A stretch of 64,000 nucleotides of DNA. Origin: Candidatus Omnitrophota bacterium (GTDB lineage: Bacteria > Omnitrophota > Gorgyraeia > Gygaellales > Profunditerraquicolaceae). This document shows, piece by piece, positions 367 to 28,130 of this stretch. Both the position numbers and the translations under genes were made by a program. Position 1 is the first letter of the stretch. Each line of letters opens with the position of its first letter. The notes below the pieces were generated by a model. That model was given only the letters and a program-made list of their open reading frames with translations, searched no databases and was not told the origin of the DNA. The DNA lies in NCBI GenBank assembly GCA_028716965.1, contig JAQUOV010000002.1, forward strand, positions 2,113 to 66,112, given 5' to 3'.

Positions 367-2082
367 TTATTTATAATATTTATATAAATCATACTTCTTA
401 AGTTCATCCAAGCTTTTGATTATCGTCTGATGATTATCACAATGGTCACAATGTTCGTCGTATAGAATCTGGCCATTGAGAAATCTTATATTTGCATTTT
501 CTTTTAAATATTTAGCCTGTCTCCTCCAACGCCAGTATTCAATTGAATTCCAAATATCTTTAAATGAACATGCGTTTACATGTCCAACCGTACGCAGATG
601 ACAACAAAAACTCATATCGTATTTTGCAGGGATTAAATTAAAATACCAACCAATCGTACAGCCATGCTTAAGAAAGAAATCTTTTGACCAAGCACCAGTT
701 TTCTCGTCGTAATTCTCAAGCTGAAATTCAAAATTATCCACAAAGTCTATATTTTTTCTTTTAAAAATTCCTTTAATCGCTGGAATTTGTTCTTTTATAG
801 CCCTGACTTCTTCTGGCTTAAGTTGTAAAAACTTGTTCATTACATCCAAACGTATTAAATAGAATCTCACCGCATCGGGAGATATCTCGGCATCCATCTC
901 AGCCATATCTATGAGCTGATGACAGTTCATGGTATGAATAACATGAGTTACAATAAGCCTTGGCCTATCGCTAGCGCTTTCCTTTTTTAATTCCATAAAT
1001 CTTTTAAGGTTATTCTTGATCTTGTAAAATGTCTCAGGCGGCTGGATTGCCGATATTTTTTCATAGACATCTGCGGTGCCTGCGGGAAAACTGCAATAAA
1101 TTTCATTCACTCCCAATTCAATCACTTCTCTTGCCTTTTCTTCGTCAAATAAAATACCATTGGTGAAAAATAATACGCCCAGGCCTTTATTACGGGCATA
1201 CCGCAACATTGGCATAAAGTTCTCATACATTAAAGGTTCGCCATCACCCTGCAATATTATACCGTCGGTCATCATGCTGGAGGCATCATTAACAACCTCT
1301 TTAAAGATTTCAAAATCAAATTTACGATTAAGGAATTCCTCCGGATGTTTCACCTGAGGCGTATGCACCCAACAATGCTGGCACTTTGCATTACATCTGT
1401 GAAACGGGTCAAATACAATGGTCTGTGGCCCGATAAAAACCTGCTCACTTATTATTCCTAAGAGCCGCAATAAATCCTTTTCTCTATCTTCGTTGGCTTG
1501 TGCATGCAAAGCAACAGTATTAAGTATTTCCATCAACTCATTATCATCAATAGTAACGATAATCCCTTCAGGCCCAACTTGCTTCCTTATTTCTTCAACA
1601 TAGTTTTTAAAATTAACTGCAATATCTTTTACGGGAAAAACCTTAAACGAGACAGGAGGGAACTGATTTTTCTTGCCTAAAAGTTCAAATGAGAAATCAA
1701 CCATTCTATTCAAACGGGAAAAATTGTACCTGGAAAGGCTTATCTTTAAATGCACCTTTTCGCCTTTATGCGCTAAATTTCTTATCATGTCGGTATTTCT
1801 TTTAAAGCCTTCCTTATCGCCCGTTATTCTCTCATGCAACTCTTCAAAATCGGAGAAAATAATAACGGGCTGATTTTGATTCTTATTTATGTATTTGTTT
1901 GTAAGCAGCGAAGGGGCCGAAGCCAGATTATACCCAAACAAGGCTTTTATATGACGCGTAATAACTGCCGGATTAAATAAACGACGTTTTGCATCCCTTA
2001 AAGGAATGTGTTTCAATAGATTCTTGAAGATCCTGGCTTTTTTAAAGAATCCTTTTAAAGTGACCATACTCATTTTATTCAA
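367..2082 (-). CDS. Radical SAM protein with an N-terminal extension and a C-terminal SPASM-like Cys cluster; paralog of the C-terminal half of the 1063-aa protein
   Basis: CNAKCQHCW (CxxxCxxC). The C-terminal Cys-rich stretch is FCCHLRTVGHVNACSF...CDHCDNH. It aligns with the C-terminal half of ORF 22108-25299: LLRLLGIISEQVFIGPQTIVFDPFHRCNAKCQHCW against LIRLLGVIVEHPFIGPQTIVIDTFHKCNTNCIHCW. Confidence 0.7.
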   Translation of the reverse strand: MNKMSMVTLKGFFKKARIFKNLLKHIPLRDAKRRLFNPAVITRHIKALFGYNLASAPSLLTNKYINKNQNQPVIIFSDFEELHERITGDKEGFKRNTDMIRNLAHKGEKVHLKISLSRYNFSRLNRMVDFSFELLGKKNQFPPVSFKVFPVKDIAVNFKNYVEEIRKQVGPEGIIVTIDDNELMEILNTVALHAQANEDREKDLLRLLGIISEQVFIGPQTIVFDPFHRCNAKCQHCWVHTPQVKHPEEFLNRKFDFEIFKEVVNDASSMMTDGIILQGDGEPLMYENFMPMLRYARNKGLGVLFFTNGILFDEEKAREVIELGVNEIYCSFPAGTADVYEKISAIQPPETFYKIKNNLKRFMELKKESASDRPRLIVTHVIHTMNCHQLIDMAEMDAEISPDAVRFYLIRLDVMNKFLQLKPEEVRAIKEQIPAIKGIFKRKNIDFVDNFEFQLENYDEKTGAWSKDFFLKHGCTIGWYFNLIPAKYDMSFCCHLRTVGHVNACSFKDIWNSIEYWRWRRQAKYLKENANIRFLNGQILYDEHCDHCDNHQTIIKSLDELKKYDLYKYYK

Positions 2083-4135
2083 TCTCTTTGTAGCAATTTA
2101 CCATACCCGCACAATTCCTTTTACAGACCCTTATCTTTTCCCGCACCCTCTCCGCTCTTTCAGAAGTCCAGATCGCATGTACGTCTGAATCTTTAATATT
2201 TCCGATTGATTCCATCTCGCAGCAAAGGTAGACCTCTCCGGCAGGATTAACATGTAAGATATCATCCCCCAGATTGCATGGTGTTGATTTAACAAATTCC
2301 TCGGGATTTTGATAGTAAAGCTTAAATCGCTCCAGTTGCTCAATCTCTGTATCAATCGGATACTTGGCAATCTTTAAGGCTATCAGCTTATCAATCACCG
2401 CATGGACCTGGCCGATATCCTGCGGCCAAAGGAACTTATACGGTTCTTTTTTATACCAGGTATCATCAATAGGGAGCATATTGGGTCTCATTACAGCAAT
2501 GAAGGAAACGGTAAGTTTGTTATTTTTCGCCCATTCTGCCAATTCCGGGATACCTTTGAGGTTTTTTGCAGTGATAATGGTCTGGATACCTAGATTCTTG
2601 AGCTTCCCCCGATATTCGTTAAAATAAGCTACTGCCTGGATAACCCGCTGATAAGAATCTCTGAGGCCACGCAAGTAATTGTGCGTACCCTCATCAAGGC
2701 TATCAAGAGAAATCGAAAGAAAATTCAAACCAGAATCTGCAATTTTTCTTGCCATTCGCCTATTGATAAGATAGGCGTTAGTAACGGTTGAAAACCGGAA
2801 TCCCTGTTGAGCTACAAATTCAATAAAATTTAATATTCCTTTTTTTAGAAACGGTTCTCCGCCTGAAATATTCATCTCAAAAGGCCCGTCTACAAAATGC
2901 CTTAAACTTAATACAAAATTACTGAGTTCTTTTATGCTGGTTTCATGGCGATTCTTTTTTGTCTTCCAATAATAGCACATCTTACAGCGGAACATGCAGC
3001 GATGGGAAACCTCAATTACGCAGAATTTCGGTTTAACAATTTTATTTCTTGTCTCCATCGGCTCAATGTGCACTTTACTTTCAGGGATGGTTTGTATTGA
3101 TTTGACGTCACTGTCTGGGGGAAAAGCGCAAACAAAATTTATTACACAACATCTTTTGCCCGGCCCATGCTCATCAATCTTTTGTCTTAACTGGTTAGCC
3201 TTCTTAGAAAACCACAAACTCTTTATATCATCGCTATTTACATCTCCCAGCGGCTCTCCGCTCAGATAGATAGTGCCTTTTTCATCTAAATCTAAAATGT
3301 AATCATGCATCCTGTATTCTGTTTCCCGCATGAATTTATCCGGATCAACGTAATAAGATTTAAAGGCTTCAAGTTGAGAAATCGGATTCCATATCTTGTA
3401 TCCTTTTTTCCTAAGCTTGATTAACTCATCAATAAGCTTATGCGTTTTTGATATATTCTGAGGCCAAAGCTCTGCGTATGCGGCGCTCTTAAACCAATTA
3501 TGCCGGACAGGGACTAACCCATTTTCTAATAATGCCAAAAAGGAAATATTCTGAAATAAACCATTACGATTTACCCATTCCGTAAGCTCTAAAATATCAT
3601 CTAAATTCTTCTCCATAATAATGGCAAGGATACTTACCGTCAAACGACCCTTACAATATTTATCGATATATTCTATGGCTTTCATAGCCTTTGACAAAGT
3701 ACCCTCAACTCCTCTATAAAAATCATGCGTATTGCTTCTTAAGCTCTCCAGGGATATGGCCAGAACATCCAAATTCGAATCCGCTATTTTTTTTGCCATA
3801 TCTTCGTCTATAAGGGTTGCATTTGTGGAAATGATGGATTTAAACCCGCATCGATGTATAAAAGAACATAGATCCAAACACCAGTCTTTTAATAACGGCT
3901 CTCCCCCCATAACATTAATCTCAAGAGGGAATTTAATAAATTCAGACAAAGCGCTTACAAAATTCCTTGCCTGCTCATAAGTAATTTCGGCCGAATCACC
4001 CTGGCAACGCCAGGCAGTACACATTTTGCATTTTAAAACGCAACGATTTGAAATAACTATATCACAGAATCGCGGATAACCGGATTTTGCATCAATAATT
4101 GCATTGCGGTTTTCAAGAAATCTTTTAGCATCCAT
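2075..4135 (-). CDS. Fused double-domain radical SAM/SPASM protein (two tandem copies of the array-type domain in one polypeptide)
   Basis: Two CxxxCxxC motifs, CVLKCKMC near the N-terminus and CMFRCKMC at about residue 365. Each is followed by GGEPLL/GGEPFL and the TN(A/G)xLI block shared by the 5758-18455 paralogs. The C-terminal half has a full Cys cluster (CNLGDD...LCCEME...CKRNCAGMVNCY). The equivalent region of the N-terminal half lacks most of those Cys. Confidence 0.75.
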   Translation of the reverse strand: MDAKRFLENRNAIIDAKSGYPRFCDIVISNRCVLKCKMCTAWRCQGDSAEITYEQARNFVSALSEFIKFPLEINVMGGEPLLKDWCLDLCSFIHRCGFKSIISTNATLIDEDMAKKIADSNLDVLAISLESLRSNTHDFYRGVEGTLSKAMKAIEYIDKYCKGRLTVSILAIIMEKNLDDILELTEWVNRNGLFQNISFLALLENGLVPVRHNWFKSAAYAELWPQNISKTHKLIDELIKLRKKGYKIWNPISQLEAFKSYYVDPDKFMRETEYRMHDYILDLDEKGTIYLSGEPLGDVNSDDIKSLWFSKKANQLRQKIDEHGPGKRCCVINFVCAFPPDSDVKSIQTIPESKVHIEPMETRNKIVKPKFCVIEVSHRCMFRCKMCYYWKTKKNRHETSIKELSNFVLSLRHFVDGPFEMNISGGEPFLKKGILNFIEFVAQQGFRFSTVTNAYLINRRMARKIADSGLNFLSISLDSLDEGTHNYLRGLRDSYQRVIQAVAYFNEYRGKLKNLGIQTIITAKNLKGIPELAEWAKNNKLTVSFIAVMRPNMLPIDDTWYKKEPYKFLWPQDIGQVHAVIDKLIALKIAKYPIDTEIEQLERFKLYYQNPEEFVKSTPCNLGDDILHVNPAGEVYLCCEMESIGNIKDSDVHAIWTSERAERVREKIRVCKRNCAGMVNCYKEIE

Positions 4136-4137
4136 CG

Positions 4138-5739
4138 TTAGTGCCTTATCTTTTGGAAAACAGAGTCTACTTTGTTTTTTTCAGTTAAATTAGAATAAAG
4201 AAAAAATAACAAGTGTTCGTCATTAAAATTCTTTATTCCCCAAATACATTTTTCTAAAACTGTTTTTAACGAACGCTCTATCTGCCGGTTCTTATCATGC
4301 CAAGACAAACCATTCTCTTCATCAAACCCAAACTTTACATAACTGATAAAATCTTTTTCTGCATACTGGTTTACTTCAAAAATACGGTTTATTCCAAATC
4401 GAGCCGGCTGGTTATAAAATGGCGTATTCTCCCTTAAATCAAAATGGTTAGGATAAATGCGATTGATATACCTGCTATTTGAATTCAGGAACCTAACGGT
4501 AGCATCTATATCTTCATCCCTCTCGTGAGGCAAACCGCAAATTACTTCAACCCCAGTCCAGATTCCTGCTTCATGGGCCCATTTGAACGCATTCCTTAAT
4601 TGCCGTAAATCGATTCGCTTGTTAATATATTTTAATAAGCGGGGGCTGGCTGTTTCCATGCCGAATATTAATCTTATACATCCTGCCCTGCGCATTTTTA
4701 GGAGAGTTGATTTGTTTAAATTATCTGCCCTTGCACAATCGCTCCATAGAATTTTAAGTTTTTTTCTTATTATTTCAGAGCACAATGCATTTACAAACTT
4801 ACTGGAAATATTGATTGTGTCATTTAAGAATAAAAATCCCGTCGGATTATATAATTCTTTTAGCTGCATTAAATCAATGGTTATTTGCTCCGGGGTCAGT
4901 ACATCGCTAACCCGGGTGCTTGAAGAAACACAAAAAGCGCACTCGTAAGGACACCCCCTTATGAACCTATACGGCAAAACAAGTGTCTGAGACGCCAGAT
5001 ATCTATTCATTGTTTCCCGGATATCTTCAGAAAAATTCAAAATTTCTTCTTGCGACCTGTATTTTTCAATGGGCAATCCGGAAAAATCCGGCTGAATAAG
5101 CTTGGAAACAATATGCGACCTAATAATTTTACCGTCATCGGAAAACTCCAAGCCAGAGATATTATCTAACCGCTCATGATTTAAGATATGTTTTAAAAGA
5201 TAGTATAACGGGGCTTCCCCCTCGCCATAGATGATATAATCTATGTAGCGACCATCGTATTTATTTTTTAATAAATCAAGCCATAAGCTGTCTCCTCCTA
5301 TTATATTTAAACAGTTATATCTTTCTTTAATAAACCTTGTAAAAGCCACAAGGAACATCAAGTTGGTATCATTTTCTATATTATCCGATAGAGAGAGCAG
5401 CACGATTTGATTATTGCAAATCTTACATTTTAATGCTGCTTTTTCCATAATAGCAGAAAGATACGCATCAGCTCCACCACGCGCATAATCTAATATACGG
5501 GCAGTGTCTGATAAAATATCAGTATCAATCGCATCCTCAAGAGAACCCGGATAAGTATTATCATAATGAATCTTTATATTAAGATCATCTTGCTCAATCG
5601 ATATCCCATGAGAGCGCAGGAAACCAGAGATTAATCCTACACCTAAAGGCGGGATAAGGGTATAATTTAATTTCGCCGTAAACTGGCGCTTCCTAAAGAA
5701 ACTTGGTGACCTTATTAATTTAATACTTCGTTCTTCCAT
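4138..5739 (-). CDS. B12-binding-domain radical SAM protein (class B rSAM)
   Basis: N-terminal Rossmann-like B12-binding region followed by CPYECAFC (CxxxCxxC) at about residue 265. The architecture is typical of the cobalamin-dependent rSAM family. Confidence 0.65.
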   Translation of the reverse strand: MEERSIKLIRSPSFFRKRQFTAKLNYTLIPPLGVGLISGFLRSHGISIEQDDLNIKIHYDNTYPGSLEDAIDTDILSDTARILDYARGGADAYLSAIMEKAALKCKICNNQIVLLSLSDNIENDTNLMFLVAFTRFIKERYNCLNIIGGDSLWLDLLKNKYDGRYIDYIIYGEGEAPLYYLLKHILNHERLDNISGLEFSDDGKIIRSHIVSKLIQPDFSGLPIEKYRSQEEILNFSEDIRETMNRYLASQTLVLPYRFIRGCPYECAFCVSSSTRVSDVLTPEQITIDLMQLKELYNPTGFLFLNDTINISSKFVNALCSEIIRKKLKILWSDCARADNLNKSTLLKMRRAGCIRLIFGMETASPRLLKYINKRIDLRQLRNAFKWAHEAGIWTGVEVICGLPHERDEDIDATVRFLNSNSRYINRIYPNHFDLRENTPFYNQPARFGINRIFEVNQYAEKDFISYVKFGFDEENGLSWHDKNRQIERSLKTVLEKCIWGIKNFNDEHLLFFLYSNLTEKNKVDSVFQKIRH

Positions 5740-5757
5740 CGCCTATAGAACTTAAAG

Positions 5758-6783
5758 TTAAGCTATCTTTTCTTCCTCGTACCAGCAATTAATTATATGG
5801 TGGCAGTTTTTCTTACAAGAAGCCATCTCTCCCCTTCTCTCTTGCGCTTTTACAGAATACCAGATGTCCTTTATATCAGCATCCCTGATATTGCCTATAC
5901 TCTCCATATAAGGACAAAGTTTAATACTACCGTCGGGAGAAACGGTAAAGCTGTTTCCATTTGTTACATTGCAGGAATATTTCTTTACAAATTCATTTGG
6001 ATTGCGGAAATATGATTTAAAAAGCTCAAGCTGCGAAATAGGGTTATTTATTTTGTCCGCTGCGCCTTGTGCTAAAGGATCTTTTAATTTAATTAAACTG
6101 TCAATAACCATGTTAACCTCATTTAATGCTTTTGGCCAAAGAAAAGCGAATTCGTCTCTTCTATACCATTCATCCTGAGGTGCGCTATGGAAAGGCTGTA
6201 CTACCGCTTGAAAGAATACAGAACGAATCCGATGATCTTTTTTTACCCAATCGGCCAACGCCAGGAGTTCAGTCAAATTTGGCGCCATTATTACCGTATC
6301 AATTGCTATCTCTAAGGAAGAACGGAATTTATCAAGGAATGTTATTGCATCCATTAATTTTTTATGGCTATCAGGCTTCCCTCGTAGATAATCATGCGTT
6401 TCTTTATTCAAACTATATAATGTCAAGGCAATATAATTTAACCCGGCCTCAACAAGCCGCTGCGCACATCCTGCATCGATAAAATAACCACTTGTTGCTA
6501 ATGATGTCCTGAATCCGTTTCTGTTGGAAAAACTGATGAGCTCTATAAGTTTATCCGGAAACAACAAAGGCTCGCCGCCGCCGAATATCATATTAAAATC
6601 AGGGGCAGCGAATTTACCTAAAGAAAGGATGAAATTCTTCCAATCAGCTTGGCTTGGCCTTCTGATACCGGATTCATCGTTTTGCCAAAGCCGGCACATC
6701 CTGCAGCGCAAGGAACAACCAAGCGTAAGTAATAAAATGCAGGCTTTAGGGATATTTTCCTGGTGTTTATTTAATGTTTCCAT
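5758..6783 (-). CDS. Radical SAM/SPASM-domain protein, tandem-array paralog
   Basis: CSLRCRMC, GGGEPLL, SGYFID, and a C-terminal cluster C..C...CxxxCxxxxxC (CNVTNG...LCPYME...CKKNCHHIINCWY). Confidence 0.75.
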   Translation of the reverse strand: METLNKHQENIPKACILLLTLGCSLRCRMCRLWQNDESGIRRPSQADWKNFILSLGKFAAPDFNMIFGGGEPLLFPDKLIELISFSNRNGFRTSLATSGYFIDAGCAQRLVEAGLNYIALTLYSLNKETHDYLRGKPDSHKKLMDAITFLDKFRSSLEIAIDTVIMAPNLTELLALADWVKKDHRIRSVFFQAVVQPFHSAPQDEWYRRDEFAFLWPKALNEVNMVIDSLIKLKDPLAQGAADKINNPISQLELFKSYFRNPNEFVKKYSCNVTNGNSFTVSPDGSIKLCPYMESIGNIRDADIKDIWYSVKAQERRGEMASCKKNCHHIINCWYEEEKIA

Positions 6784-6807
6784 TGCCGATAAGCCTTGTT
6801 TTAATTT

Positions 6808-8238
6808 TCATCTATTTGTATTTTGCCAATATGGTTTTAAATTATAATCTAAACATGCCTTAGTTAACCTCTTATGCCTATTAAGCCTTATCTCTAAAGT
6901 GTTGGTTAAATCTTTAGTAAACCAAGCAAACCAGTCATTTATCAGTGTCGTATCTATACCAAAATCTGGCGCATGCTCATATAAATACATCCCAGGCTCA
7001 ATACTACAGATATTCAAGCTATTTACTTTATCTATCCATTTCGCATTCTTTCTTATGAACTGGATGTTCTTGTCGATATCCTGTTCTGTTTCTCCCGGGA
7101 AACCAACAATAAGATTGATTTCAACACGGATATCTGCTTTTTTAGCTTTTATAATCGAATCTCGCGCATCGCGAACAGTTATGCCTTTTCTCATCAGTTT
7201 TAAAACTCTATCTGAAAGACTTTCGCAGCCAAAGGTAAGCCCTCCGCATCCTGCCTGCCTCATTTTCTTAAACAACTTACTGCTCATATCCCTTCTTACT
7301 GCAGCCTGGCCTCCCCATGCGATACCTGTCTTTTGTTGAAGCAACAGATTGCAAAATGTATCCAAAATACCTAAATTGCCGTTAATTAATAAATCACAGA
7401 ACTCAAATCTTTTTCTTTTATATTTTTGTACATGATGTTGGATTTCGTCAAACACTGACTCGGGGTTACGCCAACGATAGGGTTTCTTTATGTAGAAATC
7501 TCGGCAAAACGCGCAGGCCCGGATACAGCCTCTGCTGCTGATTAAAGGCAAAAGGTCTTCCTGAGAATAATAATCTAAATTAAATTCTTCAAAAGTAGGA
7601 AAAGGTATTTCATTAATATTTATGCGGTTTTCTTCCCTCCCTTTAAGGCACAAAGGATGATCGAGCGGATTATCCTTCCAGGTGATATATTCCAAACACG
7701 GCTGCGCAGTTTTTCCTTGCCGTAAATCGCTTAAAAGGCAAAACAAAGGATATTCCCCTTCTCCAAGGACAAAATAATCTATGCAATCCTTTCTAAACCA
7801 GAAACGGCTTTCTTTGTAATTCACTCCTGGTCCGCCAATTATTATTATTACGTCCTTGCCTATTTTTTTTCTCAACCTCAGAAGAAGCGCATTAAGAAAA
7901 GGGATAGAAGCAAAAGTTGCTGAAAATCCAATTATTTTCGCCTGGAATGAAAGTATCCTGTCAGACCAGTTTTCCAGTTGGCTGAATAAAACTTTTGGTG
8001 CTTCTCCTAAGGCCCAAAAGTTAAAGTCCTGCGTAATCCATTTCTCCTGTAACTCTTTATCTGCTTGGTGGAATATCTCAATATTTAAATCGAATATTTT
8101 AGCGGGGAAACCTTTTGTTTTTAAGAAAGTAGCCAAGTAGGCGATACCCAGGGGAGGAGCATCCACTCCCCAAGGAGGCGCCTGAATTAATAAAATCTTT
8201 TCCTGAGAGCTAATTTCACTCATTAGATTCCGTTGCAT
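6808..8238 (-). CDS. B12-binding-domain radical SAM protein inserted in the tandem array
   Basis: CIRACAFC at about residue 238 after a B12-binding-like N-terminal domain. An alternative ATG at 8223 (M6) would give an 8-bp overlap with the upstream stop. Confidence 0.65.
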   Translation of the reverse strand: MQRNLMSEISSQEKILLIQAPPWGVDAPPLGIAYLATFLKTKGFPAKIFDLNIEIFHQADKELQEKWITQDFNFWALGEAPKVLFSQLENWSDRILSFQAKIIGFSATFASIPFLNALLLRLRKKIGKDVIIIIGGPGVNYKESRFWFRKDCIDYFVLGEGEYPLFCLLSDLRQGKTAQPCLEYITWKDNPLDHPLCLKGREENRININEIPFPTFEEFNLDYYSQEDLLPLISSRGCIRACAFCRDFYIKKPYRWRNPESVFDEIQHHVQKYKRKRFEFCDLLINGNLGILDTFCNLLLQQKTGIAWGGQAAVRRDMSSKLFKKMRQAGCGGLTFGCESLSDRVLKLMRKGITVRDARDSIIKAKKADIRVEINLIVGFPGETEQDIDKNIQFIRKNAKWIDKVNSLNICSIEPGMYLYEHAPDFGIDTTLINDWFAWFTKDLTNTLEIRLNRHKRLTKACLDYNLKPYWQNTNR

Positions 8239-9223
8239 TGGTTTTTTCGTTCTCGAAAAAACAATTAATCATTGATTTACAATTGCTCTTACAGTTTCTT
8301 ATATTATTTCGTACTATTTCCGCTTTCTCGGAGAACCAAATTTCTTCAATATCCTTATTTTCCCGGATATTTCCAATAGGCTCCAAAGATAGACACAAGA
8401 ATATCTTACCTTCCGCATTAACGCTTAATGAATTATAGCCCAAATTACAATGAAACATTTTTACAAATAGTTCGGGATGTTCAAAGTAAGACTTAAAAAC
8501 ATGAAATTGTCCAGGCGGGTTTGTAATTTTATATCCTTTTTCTTTTAAATCCTTAAGCCTCTCTAACACAAAGTTTACTTTTTCTAAGTCGCTTGGCCAA
8601 AGAAATGAATATTCTTTTTTTCTATACCATTCGTTATCAGGAGGAGTAAAAAAGGGCTGGGTTATTGCCTGAAAACTGATATTTGCAATAGCATCATGCT
8701 GGTTGGCCCATTCCGCAAGCTCCGATATGTCATCAAGGTTCTGATGCATTATAGTAGTGACAATGTGAAGGCGCATTAAATTATTTCTTTTCCTGGAGAA
8801 GCGATTAATTGTTTCCATTACCCTTTCATACACCCCATCTACCCCGCGCAAAAAATCATGCGTTTGTTTCTCCAGGCTATCCAATGAAAGGACCAGGGTA
8901 TCTAAACCTGAGTTCATAATTCTATCAAAGAAATCATCATTTAATAAAAAGGAATTTGTAGTCATTGTGGTTGTTAAACCTCTTTTATCGGCATGCTTGA
9001 TCAAGTCTAATATTCCTTTTTTTAGAAGAGGCTCTCCTCCTACAAATTGCACCTGGGCCTTGCCATTTACAAAATCAGCGAAAGAATCTATAAATCTCAA
9101 CCAGTGTCTGTAATCTAACTCATCCTCATTTTTCCTCTGCCACATCTTGCACATTTTACATTTCAAGATGCAAGATTCTGTAATAATTAAATCACAGAAA
9201 GAAGGTTTTTTGTGATTGTCCAT
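8216..9223 (-). CDS. Radical SAM/SPASM-domain protein, tandem-array paralog
   Basis: CILKCKMC, VGGEPLLKKG, TTNSFLL, SLDSL..THDFLRG, and C-terminal CNLGYN...LCLSLEPIGNI...CKSNCKSMINCFF. AAGGA SD before the ATG. Confidence 0.75.
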   Translation of the reverse strand: MDNHKKPSFCDLIITESCILKCKMCKMWQRKNEDELDYRHWLRFIDSFADFVNGKAQVQFVGGEPLLKKGILDLIKHADKRGLTTTMTTNSFLLNDDFFDRIMNSGLDTLVLSLDSLEKQTHDFLRGVDGVYERVMETINRFSRKRNNLMRLHIVTTIMHQNLDDISELAEWANQHDAIANISFQAITQPFFTPPDNEWYRKKEYSFLWPSDLEKVNFVLERLKDLKEKGYKITNPPGQFHVFKSYFEHPELFVKMFHCNLGYNSLSVNAEGKIFLCLSLEPIGNIRENKDIEEIWFSEKAEIVRNNIRNCKSNCKSMINCFFENEKTNATESNE

Positions 9224-9229
9224 ATATCC

Positions 9230-10207
9230 TTAAAGAAGTTTCTTGTTTTCAAAACAATTTAATACGTTAAGGCAGCTTTCTTTGCAATTACGCATTTGTT
9301 CTCTTCTTACCATTGCTTCTGTCGAATACCAAATATCCTTTATAAGACTATCTTTAATATTGCCCACGGCAACCCTAGAACCACATAGCAAAACATCCCC
9401 CGAGGGCCGTATATACATCACATAATTACCTTGGCTGCAAATCATATCCATGCCCAATTTGTTTGGTTGCCTAAAATAGGTTTTAAAAACCTGCAGTTGT
9501 CTTATGGAATTTGATATTTTATAACCCTGTCTTTTGTATTCAATAAGCTGGTTCATAACCGCGTCTAGTTCAATTTCATTGTGTGGCCAAAGATAGCGCA
9601 ATGACTCTCTTTCATACCATTGATCATCTTTATCCGTTGCGATTGGCTGGGATATTGCCTGTAAATAGATTGAACTTAAATCATTATTATTGTTGGCCCA
9701 CTCTACCAGCTCAACCAGATGCTGAATGTTCGGCCCCATAATAACTGCTAAGATACTAATACTTTTTACGCCCTCTTTCTTCAGATTCTTAATAGCTCGC
9801 ATCGCTTGAGCATGCGCCCCTTTAACCCCCCTCAAAGAATCATGCATATCGGCATCAAGGGTATCCAATGATATGCTAATTACATCTAAGCCGCAAGACG
9901 CTATTCTAGCTGCCATAGCTTCATCTATAAGGAAACCGTTTGTCACCATTACCGTGGTAAAACCTTTTCTATGGGCGTGTGCAAGCACATCGATGACCCC
10001 TTTTTTCACCAAAGGTTCCCCTCCTGCAAAATGCAGCTTTACTTTGGAAAACCCGCATTCTGCAAGGCTATCTATAAAATATTTCCACTCTTCAATGGAT
10101 AGTTCATCAGTGTTCTCTCTGGATTCCCATAATCTGCACATTTTACATTTAAAAATGCAGTTTTCGGTAATACCTATATCACAAAAGACAGGCGCATTTA
10201 TCTCCAT
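9230..10207 (-). CDS. Radical SAM/SPASM-domain protein, tandem-array paralog
   Basis: CIFKCKMC, AGGEPLVKKG, and C-terminal CSQGNY...LCGSRVAVGNIKD...CKESCLNVLNCF. About 45% identical by eye to the 8216-9223 product. GAAGGATG SD. Confidence 0.75.
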   Translation of the reverse strand: MEINAPVFCDIGITENCIFKCKMCRLWESRENTDELSIEEWKYFIDSLAECGFSKVKLHFAGGEPLVKKGVIDVLAHAHRKGFTTVMVTNGFLIDEAMAARIASCGLDVISISLDTLDADMHDSLRGVKGAHAQAMRAIKNLKKEGVKSISILAVIMGPNIQHLVELVEWANNNNDLSSIYLQAISQPIATDKDDQWYERESLRYLWPHNEIELDAVMNQLIEYKRQGYKISNSIRQLQVFKTYFRQPNKLGMDMICSQGNYVMYIRPSGDVLLCGSRVAVGNIKDSLIKDIWYSTEAMVRREQMRNCKESCLNVLNCFENKKLL

Positions 10208-10210
10208 GGG

Positions 10211-11245
10211 TCATCCTTCATCCTGAAAATAACAATTTACGATATTATTGCAACTCTTCTGACAACCTTTCATCAATTCTCTTGTTTTCTTCGCCTCTTC
10301 TGAAAACCATATATTCTTAATTTTACCATTCTTGATATTGCCTATCTGGCGCATAAAACAACATAAATGGACATGACCAATAACATTAATATTAAAGATA
10401 TACTCTCCAAAATTACAATTATGCACCCTGGCGAAAGAACCCGGGTTAGCATAATATCTCTTATATACTTCTAGCTGGGAAATAGGATTTAATACCTTGT
10501 ATCCTGCGCGCTTATAGGCAATAACTATATCTATTATCGAAGACAAGGAATCGGGATCTTTTGGCCAAAGTAAACCGTATTCTTCGTCTAAATACCATTT
10601 ATCAATACTTTCCGTCCTAAAAGGCTGCGCTAATGCGACCACTGCTATACCGTTAAAAAACTTATCATTATTCACCCATTCCACAAGATCCTTTAGCCCC
10701 TTGGCATTTTGATGAGTGAGCACGGTATTTATATGGACTGTTCCTTTTTGCCAATATCTTTTTAAATATTTGACCGCCTTCATCAGGCGCATGTACGAGC
10801 CTTGAGTTCCGGTAATAAAATCATGGACATCTGCATCAAGGCTATCCAGTGATATGCTCAACCTGCTTAATCCTGCCATGGCCAACCTTTTTGCCATTGC
10901 CTTATCAATTAAGGTAGCATTAGTAGCTATAGCCGGCTTAAATCCTAACTCAGCGCAAAAGGAAATCAAATCAAGTACGCCTTTCTTTAATAGCGGCTCC
11001 CCTCCGCCCAAATTTACTTCTAATGGCATGGTATCAAATTCTTTTAGAGAAACAAAAAAATCTTTATATTCTTCTATGCTGACCTCATTCTCGGTGCCAT
11101 TTTTCCAAAATCGGCATTTTCTGCATTTTAAATTGCATCTTTCAGTAATAAGTACATCGCAAAATAAAGGGTTTAAAGAACCGCCACTCAATCCTTCTTT
11201 TTGGTTCTTAAGCTGAGTATAAATTGAATCTTGGGCACCGCTCAT
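10211..11245 (-). CDS. Radical SAM/SPASM-domain protein, tandem-array paralog
   Basis: CNLKCRKC, GGGEPLLKKG, and C-terminal CNFGEY...LCCFMRQIGNIKN...CQKSCNNIVNCYF. Confidence 0.75.
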   Translation of the reverse strand: MSGAQDSIYTQLKNQKEGLSGGSLNPLFCDVLITERCNLKCRKCRFWKNGTENEVSIEEYKDFFVSLKEFDTMPLEVNLGGGEPLLKKGVLDLISFCAELGFKPAIATNATLIDKAMAKRLAMAGLSRLSISLDSLDADVHDFITGTQGSYMRLMKAVKYLKRYWQKGTVHINTVLTHQNAKGLKDLVEWVNNDKFFNGIAVVALAQPFRTESIDKWYLDEEYGLLWPKDPDSLSSIIDIVIAYKRAGYKVLNPISQLEVYKRYYANPGSFARVHNCNFGEYIFNINVIGHVHLCCFMRQIGNIKNGKIKNIWFSEEAKKTRELMKGCQKSCNNIVNCYFQDEG

Positions 11246-12225
11246 TTTTCCTCTTCTTCTTTAAAAAAACAGTTTACCATGTTGTTACAGTTAAGCTGGC
11301 AGCAATGCATAGCATCCCTGGATTCCCGAGCTGCTGCTGAATTCCATAATTCCTTTATATTGTCATTTTTAATGTTGCCTATTGGTTTCATAAAACAACA
11401 TAATGAAATATCTCCTTGCGGATTCACATTAATTACATAATCACCTGCGTAACAAGGGGCTTTCCGCGCGCGCTTCGAAGGGTCATTAAAGTAAGTTTTG
11501 AAAATCTCTAATTGCAAAGGAAAATTATGTATGGGGTAGCCTTGGTTTCTTAATCTGATTAGTGCATCCAGCGCAGAATGTACTTCTTGGATCTTCTCCG
11601 GCCACAATAATTGATAAGCGGGATTCAAGTACCAGTCATCACCGGCTTGGGAGAAAAAAGGCTTTGCTATCGCCTGGAAGTATACTCCGCTTAAGAAGCT
11701 GTTATTTTTAATCCAAACAGATAGTTCCCCTATTTCTTTGTAATTTACCCCCGAAATAACAGTAATGATACCCACTCTTAAATCGGGACAAAATCTTTGC
11801 AAATTATCAAAAGCTTTCATTACCCTATCATAGGAGCCCTTAGTCCCTCTTAAGAAATCATGGGTATCAGGATTAATGCTATCCAATGAGATAAACATCT
11901 CCTTTAATCCGGAATCAGCAATCCTTTTAGCCATCTCTTCATCTATAAGATAACCATTGGAAGGCATAAGCGTTTTAAATCCTTTGTCGGTCCCGAACCT
12001 GACAAGTTCAAGTATATCTTTCTTTAATAAGGGCTCTCCGCCGCTAAAAACTATTTCTTTGGAACCATCCAAAACACCTTCCAAGCTATCAATGAAAGAC
12101 TTCCAGTCTTCTGTAGTAATGCTACTTGCCTGAGCAGGTGATTTCCACATCTCGCACATTCTGCATTTTAAGATACACTGAGTTAAAAGTACTATTGAGC
12201 AGGAAGATGGCCTTCTCGTAAGCAT
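11242..12225 (-). CDS. Radical SAM/SPASM-domain protein, tandem-array paralog
   Basis: CILKCRMC, SGGEPLLKKD, and C-terminal CYAGDY...LCCFMKPIGNIKN...CQLNCNNMVNCFF. 4-bp ATGA overlap with the downstream gene. Confidence 0.75.
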   Translation of the reverse strand: MLTRRPSSCSIVLLTQCILKCRMCEMWKSPAQASSITTEDWKSFIDSLEGVLDGSKEIVFSGGEPLLKKDILELVRFGTDKGFKTLMPSNGYLIDEEMAKRIADSGLKEMFISLDSINPDTHDFLRGTKGSYDRVMKAFDNLQRFCPDLRVGIITVISGVNYKEIGELSVWIKNNSFLSGVYFQAIAKPFFSQAGDDWYLNPAYQLLWPEKIQEVHSALDALIRLRNQGYPIHNFPLQLEIFKTYFNDPSKRARKAPCYAGDYVINVNPQGDISLCCFMKPIGNIKNDNIKELWNSAAARESRDAMHCCQLNCNNMVNCFFKEEEEK

Positions 12226-12231
12226 CTTTCT

Positions 12232-13206
12232 TTATTCTCCATAATAACAATTGACCACTAATTCACAGTTATTCTTGCATCTCAACATTTTCTCCCTAAT
12301 ACTGCCGGCCCTGGCCGAAGACCATAAACGCGTAATATCCCCGTCCCTGACATTACCTAATTTATCCAGGAAGAAACATAAATATATATCTCCTACCGCA
12401 TTCACATTTATCGCTTGATAAGCAAGATTACACTTATTTGTTTTAATAAATCCGGCGGGGTTACGAAAATATGATTTAAAGTCTTCAAGCTGCTTCACGG
12501 AGTTTTGTAGTTTACTGCTTTTACTTTTTAGTCTAATCAAAGAATCAATGCCCCGGTCTAACTTATCTGCGTCAGAAGGCCAAAGGGATTCATATTCCTT
12601 TTTCTTAAACCATTCCCAGTCTACCTCTGCCCCAAATGGCCTCATCAGTGCCATAAAATATATGTAATCAAGCTTATGATTGCCTATAACCCATTCAGTA
12701 AGCGCAGACAAACCATCTAGATTGTAAGCGGAGATAACGGTGTTAATGCCCAACTTCAATCTTTCGCCTTTAAATTTGCTCAGATATTCGATTGCCCTCA
12801 TCAGGCGCTGAAAACTATCCTGCCTGCCTCTTAAATAATTATGTACTTCAGGGACAAGGCTGTCCAGCGACAAATTCAACAAACTTAATCCGGATTCAAC
12901 CAATGCATGGGCCATAGGCTCATCAATCGTGTAACCACAAGAAGTTATCACTGAACGCCAACCTTTGCGGCTGATATGTTTAACCAACTCACATATATCT
13001 TTCTTTATTAAAGATTCCCCGCCTATAATGTGTATTTCAAATTGCTCCTGCCTGAATTGCTCAAGGGAATCAACGAATCTCTTACAATCATCAACGCTAA
13101 TCTCATTTTCCTGTGTATTAAGTTGCCATAGATTACACATCTTGCAGCGCAATATACAACTATTGGTGACTGTCAAAAGGCAGGTTTTTGGGTTCTGGAT
13201 CTTCAT
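12232..13206 (-). CDS. Radical SAM/SPASM-domain protein, tandem-array paralog (start moved to the internal ATG)
   Basis: CILRCKMC, GGESLIKKD, and C-terminal CNLAYQ...LCFFLDKLGNVRD...CKNNCELVVNCYY. The ORF-track start at 13239 is a TTG that overlaps the upstream gene by 32 bp. The ATG at M12 (13206) removes the overlap and matches the N-terminal length of the paralogs. Confidence 0.7.
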   Translation of the reverse strand: MKIQNPKTCLLTVTNSCILRCKMCNLWQLNTQENEISVDDCKRFVDSLEQFRQEQFEIHIIGGESLIKKDICELVKHISRKGWRSVITSCGYTIDEPMAHALVESGLSLLNLSLDSLVPEVHNYLRGRQDSFQRLMRAIEYLSKFKGERLKLGINTVISAYNLDGLSALTEWVIGNHKLDYIYFMALMRPFGAEVDWEWFKKKEYESLWPSDADKLDRGIDSLIRLKSKSSKLQNSVKQLEDFKSYFRNPAGFIKTNKCNLAYQAINVNAVGDIYLCFFLDKLGNVRDGDITRLWSSARAGSIREKMLRCKNNCELVVNCYYGE

Positions 13207-13207
13207 G

Positions 13208-14290
13208 TTATCCCTGTATATTATCGGTAATATTTTCAATCTTATAAAAACAATTTACTACTGTATCGCAATCTTTTTTACAGGTATTTATTTCATTCCT
13301 GGCCTTTTCCATGCTTTTTGAAAACCATATTTGAGAAAATTTCTTTTCGCGGATATTGCCCAACGGCGCCATGCCAAAACACATATTTATATCGCCGTAC
13401 GCGTTTATTTCCGGAGCAAGATCGCCCCGGGGACACTTAATCTTTTCCTCGTGGATAAACCGGTGAGGATTCCTAAAATACTCCTTTACTAACCTTAATT
13501 GTTCAGGAGGATTGCAGATTTTATATCCTCTCTCCTTTAATATAGCGAGTTCTTCTAAAATAGCGGATACCTTCTTTATATCACGCGGCCAGATTTCATT
13601 ATAGTCCTTGTTAAGAAACCAATCCTGTTGATAATTTTCGCAGTCAAACGGCTGCAAGCAGGCATTTAGAAACAGGTCATTTATTTTCCCGTTGTTTTGC
13701 GCCCACTCAACAAGCGGTAAAATTTCATCTAGATTCTTCTCCATCATTGTCATGGTAACACCAATACTCAGCCTCTCAGCTTTATCTTCTCCCCTGTATT
13801 TATCTAATAAATCGATTGCTTCCATTACTTTTCGATGGCTACCCTTAATCCCTCTTAAATAGTCGTGGGTTTCCTCTTTGATTCCGTCCAAAGAAAGAAA
13901 TATGCCCTTAAGACCAGCCTGAACAATACGCTGTGACATTAATTCATCAATATAAAAACCATTCGTGGTGATAGAGCTATTAAATCCGCTCCCTTTGATG
14001 TACGAGATAATCTCCATGAGATCTTTTCTTAATAAGGCTTCCCCTCCGATCAAATGAATAAAAATAGGCTTGGAGGCGACCTTCTTAAAATCATCCACAA
14101 AATATTTTATTTCTTTCAAAGAGAGTTCTTTTCTTTCCGGAGATTTCTGTCTATTTTTCCACATATTGCACATTTTACATTTAAAGTTACATTTCTTTGA
14201 AACTACTAAAAGACAAAAAACCGGCTCTGGGACATCCTTCAAAGGAGTGCTTTTAAATAATGCTTTCCTTACAAATGATAGCATATTCAT
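13208..14290 (-). CDS. Radical SAM/SPASM-domain protein, tandem-array paralog
   Basis: CNFKCKMC, IGGEALLRKD, and C-terminal CPRGDL...MCFGMAPLGNIRE...CKKDCDTVVNCFY. Confidence 0.75.
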   Translation of the reverse strand: MNMLSFVRKALFKSTPLKDVPEPVFCLLVVSKKCNFKCKMCNMWKNRQKSPERKELSLKEIKYFVDDFKKVASKPIFIHLIGGEALLRKDLMEIISYIKGSGFNSSITTNGFYIDELMSQRIVQAGLKGIFLSLDGIKEETHDYLRGIKGSHRKVMEAIDLLDKYRGEDKAERLSIGVTMTMMEKNLDEILPLVEWAQNNGKINDLFLNACLQPFDCENYQQDWFLNKDYNEIWPRDIKKVSAILEELAILKERGYKICNPPEQLRLVKEYFRNPHRFIHEEKIKCPRGDLAPEINAYGDINMCFGMAPLGNIREKKFSQIWFSKSMEKARNEINTCKKDCDTVVNCFYKIENITDNIQG

Positions 14291-14300
14291 AACTATTGGC

Positions 14301-15338
14301 CTAAAAAGTGGGCTTATTCAACACAGGTTTATCTTTAAAAGGTAACTCATCTTCATAGAAACAATTAATCATAATATGACAATTTTTCTTACAACCATAT
14401 ACCTCTTTTCTTGTTTCTTGTGTTTTAACTGAATCCCACAATACAGCAAGATTATCGGTTTTAATATTCCCGATCCCCTCAGTCAAACAACAAAAGAAAA
14501 TCTTTCCATATGGATCTACGTGAAATTCATAATCGCCGAGATTACATTTTATTTTCTTTAGAAATATGTTCGGTTCAGCAAAATATTCATTAAAATGCAG
14601 GAAATGATTTTGATGGTTTCCAATTTTATATCCGCTAGCCTTCATTTTTTTTAAGCATCTCATAACTTTTGAAACTTTCTTCAAATCGTCGGGCCAAAGG
14701 AATCTGTTTTTGTCGTTCTTAAACCAGTCCCTATCCATCTCTTGGCAAAAAGGCTGCGTTACTGCCTGAAAGCTGATCATCTCTATTTTTCTGTTTCTTT
14801 GTGTCCATTTCGCAAGCTTTAAGATCTCATTCAGGTTAGTTTTCATTATTGTCGTAAGGATCGCTATCTTTAATTTACTGCCCTTGCGATACTTGTCTAA
14901 ATACTCTATGGCCTTGATTATCCTTCTAAAGCTACCCTTTACTCCTCTTATAAAATCGTGCGTTTGCGACCGTATACCATCCAACGATAAAGTGAGAGTA
15001 CCCAACTTTGAGTTAACGATCTCCTTTGCCATTAGTTCATCTATAAGGAAGCCATTAGTCACTATATTTGTCCTGTAACCTTCTCCTGAAATAAAATTAA
15101 CCAGCTCCAATACCCCCTCAGACATCAACGGTTCTCCTCCCGACAAATGAAACTCAAAATCCGTATCAACGAAGCCACGCAGAGATCGCACAAAATTCTT
15201 TTTTTGCTGCATAGTAGTCTGTGTATTATAATCATCCTTTATATTCCAGATATTGCACATCTTGCATCTAAACATGCAGCGGTAATTAATCACCCAGCAG
15301 CAAAAACGGGGCTTAAGTAGAGGATTATAGCTATCCAT
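14301..15338 (-). CDS. Radical SAM/SPASM-domain protein, tandem-array paralog
   Basis: CMFRCKMC, SGGEPLMSEG, and C-terminal CNLGDYEF...FCCLTEGIGNIKT...CKKNCHIMINCFY. Confidence 0.75.
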   Translation of the reverse strand: MDSYNPLLKPRFCCWVINYRCMFRCKMCNIWNIKDDYNTQTTMQQKKNFVRSLRGFVDTDFEFHLSGGEPLMSEGVLELVNFISGEGYRTNIVTNGFLIDELMAKEIVNSKLGTLTLSLDGIRSQTHDFIRGVKGSFRRIIKAIEYLDKYRKGSKLKIAILTTIMKTNLNEILKLAKWTQRNRKIEMISFQAVTQPFCQEMDRDWFKNDKNRFLWPDDLKKVSKVMRCLKKMKASGYKIGNHQNHFLHFNEYFAEPNIFLKKIKCNLGDYEFHVDPYGKIFFCCLTEGIGNIKTDNLAVLWDSVKTQETRKEVYGCKKNCHIMINCFYEDELPFKDKPVLNKPTF

Positions 15339-15348
15339 AATTTAAAAT

Positions 15349-16347: not shown

Positions 16348-16357
16348 ACATATCTCC

Positions 16358-17401: not shown

Positions 17402-17423
17402 AACTTTTCCTTTATTTAAATTT

Positions 17424-18455: not shown

Positions 18456-18622
18456 TATCTACTGAATTTTCTCCAATCTATTCCCTTGCTTATGCATATA
18501 TTACGCCACGCTATATATTTAAACCCTCGCTTAAGCGCGTAGAAAAAACCGCCTGTTTTATTATGCTTCATGAATTTCTGCCAGAGTGTTTCTGCCATAT
18601 TCTGCCTCCTTTATCAAACCGT

Positions 18623-28125: not shown

Positions 28126-28130
28126 GCGCT

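What the first reader, a model, noticed from the sequence alone, without database searches (positions are those of the whole stretch)
2075..4135. Fused double rSAM/SPASM protein whose N-terminal half has a SPASM region lacking the auxiliary-cluster Cys
Both halves keep CxxxCxxC and GGEPLL. The N-terminal half ends in ...RMHDYILDLDEKGTIYLSGEPLGDVNSD...GKRCCVINFVCAF. The C-terminal half has the full CNLGDDILHVNPAGEVYLCCEMESIGNIKD...CKRNCAGMVNCY cluster seen in every array paralog.

This could be a covalently linked heterodimer in which one domain has lost its auxiliary Fe-S cluster. It might then act as a substrate-binding or allosteric partner. It could also be an evolutionary snapshot of how the array was generated.
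Basis: seen in the sequence. Interest (0 to 1): 0.55.

Follow-up and report, generated by a model that had tools for sequence, protein, structure and literature searches.

The report
Fused radical-SAM pair, one cluster-poor
A real, conserved gene in an uncultured Omnitrophota bacterium joins two old radical-SAM enzyme paralogues, one of which has lost most of the cysteines for its second iron-sulfur cluster; it is a new variant of a known enzyme type, not an error.

Summary
ORF 2075-4135 (minus strand, 686 aa) encodes two complete radical-SAM domains joined by a disordered linker of about 24 residues.

The other 12 array domains share five C-terminal Cys: C-x12-G-x4-C ... C-x3-C-x5-C. The N-half has Tyr274, Ser292 and Gly326 at the first three, in register, and keeps the last two. 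Each replacement is one nucleotide from a Cys codon.

The fusion is not a frameshift or assembly error. The same architecture recurs in other Omnitrophota assemblies at 47-81% identity.

The N-type domain is a distinct, old lineage of about 48 cluster representatives, nearly all with Y/S/G. It keeps CxxxCxxC and GGE, is more conserved than the C-half, and has dN/dS of about 0.04-0.10.

It is encoded immediately upstream of the C-type in every complete locus carrying a full N-type gene. The two are separate genes, carry a TPR tail or TPR linker, are fused directly, or form triple fusions. At least two direct fusions look independent.

The halves are only 37% identical, so this is not a snapshot of array birth.

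The best reading is an obligate two-active-site radical-SAM pair in a glycan-type biosynthetic island, with an auxiliary cluster only in the C-half. Substrate and chemistry remain unknown.

The parts
2075..4135 (-). Whole fused ORF, 686 aa: N-type radical-SAM domain, linker, C-type radical-SAM domain
   Evidence: identical protein on Logan contig L001 and NCBI MAG protein P0001
3368..4084 (-). N-half radical-SAM core (aa 18-256). Contains CVLKCKMC (aa 32-39, nt 4019-4042), GGEPLLK (aa 77-83, nt 3887-3907) and the N-type-specific WCLDLC (W85, C86, C90).
   Evidence: Pfam PF04055; motif coordinates; conservation
3113..3367 (-). N-half degenerate twitch/SPASM-like region (aa 257-341). Y274 (nt 3314-3316), S292 (3260-3262) and G326 (3158-3160) replace family Cys 1-3. 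C330 and C336 are retained, and C329 is extra.
   Evidence: alignment; ortholog alignment; no PF13186 hit; the AF2 model keeps the hairpin plus helices; dN/dS 0.04
3041..3112 (-). Inter-domain linker (aa 342-365), poorly conserved and variable in length. It contains the ATG of M360 (nt 3056-3058), which aligns with the start codon of stand-alone C-type orthologs.
   Evidence: linker identity 8-50%; pN 0.31; pLDDT below 50; alignment to L005 stand-alone C-type
2324..3040 (-). C-half radical-SAM core (aa 366-604). Contains CMFRCKMC (aa 380-387, nt 2975-2998) and GGEPFLK (aa 425-431, nt 2843-2863).
2078..2323 (-). C-half auxiliary-cluster domain (aa 605-686) with the full family motif: C620-x12-G-x4-C638 ... 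C671-x3-C675-x5-C681
   Evidence: Pfam SPASM 46.4 bits; alignments
4138..5739 (-). Upstream 533-aa radical-SAM gene (BchE/PhpK-like; no B12 domain detected), a conserved syntenic partner of the pair
   Evidence: synteny in L003, L004, L006
367..2082 (-). Downstream 571-aa radical-SAM/SPASM gene, a conserved syntenic partner. It is followed by a glycosyltransferase in relatives.
   Evidence: synteny; 44% identical to the C-terminal part of the 1063-aa protein
5758..6783 (-). 341-aa array paralogue whose orthologue is fused in front of the N-type/C-type pair in triple-domain proteins (P0006-P0010)
8216..18455 (-). Ten further single-domain paralogues of the same five-Cys family, in tandem
25303..28913 (-). 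Wzm-like ABC-2 permease and TagH/Wzt-like ATPase at the head of the operon. The ATPase has three C-terminal beta-rich repeat domains.

Best explanation
The ORF is a genuine, selected fusion of two anciently diverged paralogues from an Omnitrophota family of radical-SAM enzymes. The family normally carries an abridged, five-Cys twitch/SPASM-like auxiliary-cluster domain.

The N-type lineage lost three of those five Cys long ago, to Tyr, Ser and Gly. It kept the fold, the SAM-cleaving CxxxCxxC cluster site and the GGE SAM-binding motif. The C-type kept the full auxiliary site.

The two always work as a pair. In different lineages they are held together by a TPR tail on the N-type, by a TPR linker, or by direct covalent fusion as in this window. 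Sometimes a third paralogue is fused in front.

The most likely mechanism (inferred, not shown) is a two-active-site enzyme. Each half cleaves its own SAM, and the two halves carry out coupled or consecutive radical steps on one substrate. Only the C-half has an auxiliary [4Fe-4S] cluster for electron handling. The N-half either performs chemistry that needs no auxiliary cluster or relies on its partner.

The substrate is probably a sugar, glycan or glycoconjugate intermediate made by the surrounding island and exported by the Wzm/Wzt-type transporter.
For: Shown by tool results:
- The reading frame is single, with two radical-SAM domains.
- Three of five family Cys are lost in register.
- The five-Cys motif is the family norm, found in 148 of 208 domains.
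- The Y/S/G pattern, together with intact CxxxCxxC and GGE, holds in about 48 N-type cluster representatives.
- The N-half is more conserved than the C-half and the linker is free to vary.
- dN/dS is 0.10 for the N core, 0.04 for the degenerate region, 0.07 for the C core and 0.13 for the C auxiliary domain.
- The AF2 model (pLDDT 83.7) gives two well-folded domains, a disordered linker, and the hairpin-plus-helix fold retained in the N-half.
- The nearest solved folds are the twitch/SPASM enzymes SkfB, SuiB and anSME, then MoaA, and the sugar or nucleotide enzymes BlsE, DesII and viperin.

Coupling of the pair:
- N-type and C-type are adjacent or fused in the 7 GTDB species-representative loci that hold a complete N-type gene, and in L002-L006.
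- A stand-alone C-type begins exactly at the position of M360.
- The NJ tree nests the window's direct fusion inside TPR-bearing split forms and apart from a second fused clade. That implies repeated independent fusion.

Context: a TagH/Wzt-like exporter, DegT aminotransferases, GT2, PMT_2, carbamoyltransferases and a polysaccharide deacetylase. No plausible peptide precursor was found.

Precedent: FO synthase exists both as fused FbiC and as split CofG plus CofH. It has two radical-SAM domains, each using its own 5'-deoxyadenosyl radical (PMC11917521).
Against: No biochemical data exist, so activity of either half, cluster content and substrate are all inferred.

The AF2 pTM of 0.50 gives no confident interface between the halves.

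C330, C336 and the N-type-specific C90 (plus C86 in closer relatives) are well conserved. A rewired metal or cluster site in the N-half therefore cannot be excluded.

One relative (P0012) has Tyr in place of the first CxxxCxxC Cys.

The glycan assignment rests on gene neighbourhood only. TPR domains could equally point to a protein or peptide substrate.
Confidence: 0.6

Rival explanations
1. The N-half is a pseudo-enzyme. It acts as a non-catalytic substrate-binding, scaffolding or allosteric partner for the catalytic C-half.
For: Three of the five auxiliary-site Cys are lost. Most relatives carry a TPR protein-interaction tail on the N-type. One relative lacks the first CxxxCxxC Cys. Degenerate partners are known in the superfamily, for example NCBIfam TIGR04347 pseudo-SAM/SPASM, which appears as a sub-threshold hit.
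Against: CxxxCxxC and GGE are retained in essentially all N-type representatives. The N-half is more conserved than the C-half. dN/dS across the radical-SAM core is about 0.1. A pure scaffold would not be expected to keep every SAM-cluster ligand over this depth of divergence.
Confidence: 0.2
2. The N-half still binds a second metal or Fe-S centre at a rewired site. Candidate ligands are C330 and C336 together with the N-type-specific C90, with C86 or C329 as a further ligand. On this reading the auxiliary cluster is relocated rather than lost.
For: C90 and C330 are present in all N-type representatives of at least 47% identity. C336 is present in most, and C86 in the closer clades. The WCLDLC motif is unique to the N-type.
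Against: The four Cys do not co-vary as a unit. C336 is Val in 5 representatives, some of which still keep C86. C86 is aliphatic in all distant N-types, and C329 varies among C, S, V, I and A. Positions 86 and 90 replace aliphatic residues one helical turn apart in the other paralogues, which suggests a buried helix face rather than a ligand site. Distances could not be measured because the tools return no model coordinates.
Confidence: 0.12
3. The fusion is an artefact of a frameshift, a lost stop codon through sequencing error, or a chimeric assembly.
For: Array genes are packed with gaps or overlaps of 0-4 nt, so a single error could merge neighbours. One related locus, L014, does look chimeric.
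Against: An identical protein occurs on a separately assembled contig. Five clusters at 77-81% identity, and further ones at 47-52%, from NCBI, JGI, ENA and Logan data carry the same in-frame fusion with different linker lengths. Both halves are under purifying selection.
Confidence: 0.02
4. The fusion is a recent tandem duplication caught before the copies separated, that is, a snapshot of how the array grew.
For: The two halves belong to the same family and sit in a tandem array.
Against: The halves are 37% identical, within the 30-49% range of all array paralogues. Each half has its own orthologues at 58-87% identity in other genomes. In many genomes the two are separate genes.
Confidence: 0.02

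Closest known systems
Twitch/SPASM-domain radical-SAM enzymes (anSME, SkfB, SuiB, BtrN, MoaA, PqqE)
   Same: Both have a partial TIM-barrel radical-SAM core followed by a C-terminal hairpin-plus-helix domain with a C-x9-15-G-x4-C element. The C-half passes the Pfam SPASM threshold. The best Foldseek matches are SkfB, SuiB and anSME.
   Different: The family has five Cys (C-x12-G-x4-C ... C-x3-C-x5-C) instead of the seven-Cys SPASM motif (PMC6231123). The N-half has only two of the five, so it cannot form the canonical auxiliary site. No NCBIfam equivalog reaches its cut-off.
FO synthase: FbiC (fused) versus CofG plus CofH (split)
   Same: Two different radical-SAM domains act on one pathway step. 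They are found either as one polypeptide or as two adjacent genes in different lineages (PMC11917521).
   Different: There is no specific sequence relationship. In FO synthase neither half is a twitch/SPASM paralogue of the other, and there is no TPR-mediated intermediate state.
Paired paralogous radical-SAM/SPASM genes (ScmE/ScmF, HxsB/HxsC, NirJ1/NirJ2, AhbC/AhbD)
   Same: These are adjacent, diverged paralogues of one radical-SAM/SPASM family working in one pathway. They appear as the best, sub-threshold, NCBIfam hits.
   Different: All scores are far below the curated cut-offs, for example NirJ2 at 150.7 bits against 500. Fusion of those pairs, or selective loss of the auxiliary Cys in one partner, is not part of their NCBIfam family descriptions.
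TIGR04347 pseudo-SAM/SPASM proteins
   Same: A radical-SAM/SPASM family member in which one of the Fe-S sites has degenerated.
   Different: By the family name, the SAM-cluster side is the degenerate one there. Here the SAM cluster site is intact and the auxiliary site is degenerate. The hit is sub-threshold (118.5 bits against 525).

Membership tests
Radical SAM superfamily (PF04055) | CxxxCxxC cluster motif and a Pfam score above the gathering threshold, in each half | tested here: met
   PF04055 scores 142.5 bits against a cut-off of 29.5, with two stretches. The motifs lie at residues 32-39 and 380-387, with GGEP at 77 and 425.
SPASM domain (PF13186; seven-Cys motif CX9-15GX4C-gap-CX2CX5CX3C-gap-C), C-half | Pfam hit above threshold | tested here: met
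   46.4 bits against a cut-off of 21.5, at residues 620-675
SPASM domain (PF13186; seven-Cys motif CX9-15GX4C-gap-CX2CX5CX3C-gap-C), C-half | All seven Cys, able to ligate two auxiliary clusters | tested here: not met
   Only five conserved Cys are present: C-x12-G-x4-C ... C-x3-C-x5-C. The fourth Cys of the CX2CX5CX3C block and the final Cys are absent. Motif definition from PMC6231123.
SPASM/twitch auxiliary-cluster domain, N-half | Cys ligands of the auxiliary cluster at the hairpin and after the helix | tested here: not met
   Y274, S292 and G326 replace Cys 1-3 and there is no PF13186 hit. The fold itself is retained in the AF2 model.
Twitch domain (one auxiliary cluster), C-half and the other array paralogues | Truncated SPASM that binds a single auxiliary cluster | tested here: inconclusive
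   The five-Cys count and the SkfB top fold hit fit. NF033640 scores 90.1 bits against a cut-off of 170. Cluster number cannot be determined from sequence.
NirJ/AhbD/ScmE/PqqE and the other NCBIfam equivalogs | Score above the curated cut-off | tested here: not met
   All hits are far below their cut-offs.
FbiC-type fused two-domain radical-SAM enzyme (functional analogy only) | Both domains cleave SAM and act on one product | not testable with these tools
   This requires enzymology. Only the architectural parallel, fused in some lineages and split in others, was shown (PMC11917521).

The most novel reading that the evidence does not exclude
The N-type/C-type pair is an obligate heteromeric radical-SAM enzyme. 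A catalytically active half without its own auxiliary cluster depends on the partner's cluster, so electrons pass between the two domains. Repeated TPR tethering and repeated gene fusion enforce that dependence. The pair is the terminal module of an assembly line of more than 25 radical-SAM enzymes that tailors an exported glycan or glycoconjugate in Omnitrophota.
Probability: 0.15. Interest if true: 0.75.

Novelty: new variant of a known kind. Interest (0 to 1): 0.45.

Why it matters
Auxiliary clusters of twitch/SPASM radical-SAM enzymes are poorly understood. Recent work argues that they mediate obligatory intermolecular electron transfer (PMC10470005).

This family offers a natural experiment. 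One paralogue has dispensed with the auxiliary site yet stays under strong selection. It is always tethered, covalently or through TPR repeats, to a paralogue that keeps the site. That makes it a clean system for asking whether an auxiliary cluster can serve a neighbouring active site, or whether the chemistry of the N-half simply does not need one.

It also flags an uncharacterised, very large radical-SAM tailoring pathway. At least 27 radical-SAM genes lie in 64 kb, next to a glycopolymer-type exporter, in a phylum with no cultured model organism.

Tried and rejected
- Family assignment. Pfam and NCBIfam gave only generic radical-SAM/SPASM hits, and every equivalog was below its cut-off.
- PDB by sequence. 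Only weak hits appeared, to SuiB, BlsE and GDGT-MAS.
- RiPP reading. I scanned the intergenic gaps for precursor-like small ORFs and found nothing convincing. No RRE/PqqD domain was seen in Pfam. The reading is not excluded, only unsupported.
- Rewired-site test. I wanted Cys-Cys distances from the AF2 model, but the tools return no coordinates. Only conservation logic could be applied.
- Numbering errors. My first key-position table was off by one because alignment A1 was built from window:2075-4132:-, which drops the start codon rather than the stop. One search is the corrected table, but its 'C3' column reads G324 rather than G326. G326 conservation rests (nearly invariant) and the alignment. 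A1 and AF2 numbers equal true residue number minus 1.
- Internal translation start. Upstream regions of the array genes show no consistent Shine-Dalgarno motif, so an independent start at M360 could not be judged.
- Literature. Searches for Omnitrophota plus radical SAM found nothing on this family.
- BlsE as precedent. I considered citing BlsE as a cluster-less twitch enzyme, but its paper suggests it may hold two clusters, so I did not use it.
- Repeat domain. The fold match to carbohydrate-enzyme beta-supersandwich domains is weak (E about 5e-4, model pLDDT 68.6). I treat it only as a hint.
Full report
**What is there**

The minus strand of 2075-4135 is one open frame of 686 aa. Only 0-8 nt separate it from, or overlap it with, its neighbours in a long co-directional operon. 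Pfam finds two Radical_SAM stretches but a SPASM hit only at residues 620-675.

Residue numbers below are those of the true protein. Alignment A1 and the AF2 model were built from a sequence lacking the initiator Met, so their numbers are one lower.

- CxxxCxxC lies at residues 32-39 and 380-387.
- GGEPLL lies at 77-82 and GGEPFL at 425-430.
- The source is a Candidatus Omnitrophica/Omnitrophota metagenome-assembled genome, on a contig of 237 kb.

**The cysteine map**

I aligned the eleven single-domain paralogues at 5758-18455 with the two halves. Five Cys columns are conserved in all twelve other domains. In the C-half they are C620-x12-G-x4-C638, a gap of 32 residues, then C671-x3-C675-x5-C681.

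This is an abridged version of the seven-Cys SPASM motif CX9-15GX4C-gap-CX2CX5CX3C-gap-C (PMC6231123). The family is better described as twitch-like than as full SPASM, although the Pfam SPASM model scores above threshold.

The N-half aligns in register through this region. BLASTP to a stand-alone C-type runs straight through it with a single 2-residue gap. It has Y274, S292 and G326 at Cys positions 1-3, keeps C330 and C336 at positions 4-5, and has an extra C329. The three replacement codons (TAC, AGC, GGC) are each one substitution from TGC.

**Not an artefact**

- An identical protein is called on a separately assembled Logan contig.
- The protein search returned four further clusters at 77-81% identity over 98-99% of the length (P0002-P0005, 660-679 aa).
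- It also returned double-domain proteins at 47-51% identity (P0012-P0016).
- Triple-domain proteins of 1032-1082 aa carry the degenerate domain as the middle one (P0006-P0010).
- These come from NCBI, JGI, ENA and Logan data.
- Their linkers differ in length and sequence, while both halves are conserved.

**The degenerate domain is a selected lineage, not decay**

Across these relatives the N-half is more conserved than the C-half. The figures are 54-63% against 42-45% in the more distant relatives, and 78-87% against 80-81% in the close ones. The linker is 8-50% identical.

Nei-Gojobori estimates against the L003 orthologue give the following:

| Region | dN/dS |
|---|---|
| N core | 0.10 |
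| Degenerate region | 0.04 |
| C core | 0.07 |
| C auxiliary domain | 0.13 |

The linker has pN of 0.31. dS is near saturation, so these values are rough.

In about 48 cluster representatives of the N-type (at least 47% identity), CxxxCxxC and GGE are intact. There is one exception, P0012, and a few sequences are truncated. Position 1 is Tyr in nearly all, position 2 is always Ser, and the Gly at position 3 (G326) is at least 90% conserved in the fusion alignment.

In a wider sample of 208 domains of the family, 148 carry all five Cys. The Y/S-type patterns belong to the N-type lineage. A full-library phmmer search with the N-half found 199 representative clusters at E of 1e-30 or better, of which only about ten look like N-type.

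**Structure**

AF2 on the 15-sequence alignment gives a mean pLDDT of 83.7 but a pTM of only 0.50. The model shows two confident domains, a disordered linker (model residues 344-363), and no confident relative orientation. The N-half keeps the hairpin and helices of the auxiliary domain.

Foldseek's best PDB matches are SkfB, SuiB, BlsE, anSME and MoaA, followed by viperin and DesII. By sequence the PDB offers only weak hits.

**The two halves are a conserved gene pair whose physical coupling varies**

Neighbourhoods of relatives show the same module. The order is B12-radical-SAM, 5758-type paralogue, a radical-SAM of about 535 aa, N-type, C-type, a radical-SAM/SPASM of about 560 aa, and a glycosyltransferase. 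Gene order shifts slightly in L002.

A scan of GTDB species representatives returned ten loci:

| Locus or loci | State |
|---|---|
| L007 | Direct N-C fusion |
| L008, L009, L010, L016 | N-type with a C-terminal TPR tail, then a stand-alone C-type 2 nt downstream |
| L011 | One 980-aa N-TPR-C protein |
| L013 | N-type and C-type as separate genes overlapping by 4 nt, no TPR |
| L012 | Cut by the contig end |
| L014 | An apparent chimera (see below) |
| L015 | Matches other paralogues, not this pair |

P0011 is also an N-TPR-C protein. P0017 and P0034 split the pair inside the TPR region.

The stand-alone C-type of L005 is 58% identical to the C-half and begins exactly where M360 lies in the fusion.

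An NJ tree of N-type domains has no support values, so it is only suggestive. It places TPR-bearing split forms at the base. It nests the window's direct-fusion group inside TPR-bearing forms, apart from a second clade holding direct and triple fusions. That implies at least two independent direct fusions, plus separate N-TPR-C fusions.

**Not a snapshot of array growth**

The halves are 37% identical to each other. All thirteen domains are 30-49% identical to one another. Each half has its own orthologues elsewhere. The duplications are old, and the fusion is a derived joining of neighbours.

**Context**

The 64-kb window holds at least 27 radical-SAM genes, including six or more of the B12-binding type. 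It also holds:

- a Wzm-like ABC-2 permease and an ATPase whose best (sub-threshold) NCBIfam matches are TagH and Wzt;
- two DegT-type aminotransferases, a GT2 and two PMT_2 (ArnT-like) glycosyltransferases;
- two carbamoyltransferases, a polysaccharide deacetylase, a sulfatase and SAM methyltransferases.

No convincing precursor-peptide ORF was found.

A beta-rich domain of about 220 aa with no Pfam match occurs in several proteins. It is repeated three times in the ATPase C-terminus, twice at the N-terminus of the 1063-aa radical-SAM protein, and once at the C-terminus of the 727-aa B12-radical-SAM protein. It is also fused to array-type domains in P0065. Its low-confidence AF2 model weakly resembles beta-supersandwich domains of carbohydrate-active enzymes and YidC P1.

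Together this points to a glycan or glycoconjugate substrate. That is inference from neighbourhood only.

**Mechanism proposed**

Shown by the analysis:
- two intact SAM-cluster sites;
- one intact and one degenerate auxiliary site;
- strong selection on both halves;
- obligate adjacency with repeated tethering or fusion.

Inferred:
- both halves are catalytic;
- they act on the same substrate in coupled or consecutive steps, as in FbiC versus CofG plus CofH (PMC11917521);
- only the C-half handles electrons through an auxiliary cluster.

Two sub-possibilities remain open. The N-half may perform auxiliary-independent chemistry; I recall single-cluster precedents such as viperin and DesII from my own knowledge and did not check them here. 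Alternatively it may use its partner's cluster, an idea made plausible by evidence for intermolecular electron transfer through auxiliary clusters (PMC10470005).

**Rivals**

- A non-catalytic N-half is disfavoured by the retained catalytic motifs.
- A rewired site is possible. C90, C330 and C336 are well conserved in the N-type, and C86 is conserved in closer relatives. However, the set does not co-vary as a unit: C336 is Val in five representatives and C86 is aliphatic in distant ones. Distances could not be measured.

**Verdict**

This is a new variant of a known kind: a twitch/SPASM-type radical-SAM pair with one auxiliary-site-deficient partner, recurrently fused. It belongs to an uncharacterised Omnitrophota family with no curated model.

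Interest is moderate for the fusion itself. The surrounding radical-SAM pathway of more than 25 enzymes is the larger unknown.

Noticed in passing
window 367-28913 and 34630-61717: The density of radical-SAM genes is extraordinary. At least 27 genes (28 domains) lie in 64 kb, including B12-binding types at 6808, 19920, 34630, 37104 and 45437. They are interleaved with sugar-modifying genes and headed by a Wzm/Wzt-like exporter.
   Followed up: partly
window 25303-27438 (ATPase C-terminus), 23620-25221 (1063-aa rSAM N-terminus), 19923-20666 (727-aa B12-rSAM C-terminus): A shared all-beta domain of about 220 aa has no Pfam match. There are six copies across three proteins, with invariant Trp, Phe, Gly, Pro and Arg columns. 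Its AF2 model (pLDDT 68.6) weakly resembles carbohydrate-enzyme beta-supersandwich domains. It may be a polymer-recognition module shared by the exporter and the tailoring enzymes.
   Followed up: partly
L014:1788-2804 (contig CAZAPE010000076.1): This ORF is an apparent chimera. An N-type radical-SAM core (residues 1-248) is joined to a Cys-bearing tail of the 5758-type, at the conserved NP[IV]SQL..FKSY motif. A 4138-type gene follows. It could be real recombination between paralogues or a co-assembly artefact.
   Followed up: partly
window 3866-3883 (aa 85-90, WCLDLC): An N-type-specific motif follows GGEPLL. An invariant Trp replaces Gly or Asp, and two Cys replace aliphatic residues of the other paralogues. 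It could fill or re-line the space of the lost cluster. This could not be tested without coordinates.
   Followed up: partly
P0012 (715 aa, ENA): This N-C fusion relative has Tyr instead of the first Cys of the N-half CxxxCxxC (THYVLQCKMC). It is a single case, and may be either an error or a genuinely inactivated N-half.
   Followed up: no
L002:2081-4240 and 5297-7483; P0027, P0028, P0029, P0031, P0059: Other pairs of array paralogues are also fused into double-domain proteins of about 700 aa in other Omnitrophota. In those cases both halves keep all five Cys. Neighbour fusion is therefore common in this family.
   Followed up: partly
window 18455-18623 (-): A 47-aa ORF (MAETLWQKFMKHNKTGGFFYALKRGFKYIAWRNICISKGIDWRKFSR) sits in the only sizeable gap inside the array. 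It does not obviously look like a precursor peptide.
   Followed up: no
window 16358-16440: The ORF at 15349-16440 overlaps its upstream neighbour by 83 nt and begins with a hydrophobic stretch. The true start is probably the internal Met at MNDIKPKF, by analogy with the other paralogues.
   Followed up: no
L003:526-1911, L005:6310-7953, L009, L014, L016: A GDSL-lipase/TPR protein of 461-547 aa sits inside or next to the array in several relatives. It is absent from the array in this window.
   Followed up: no
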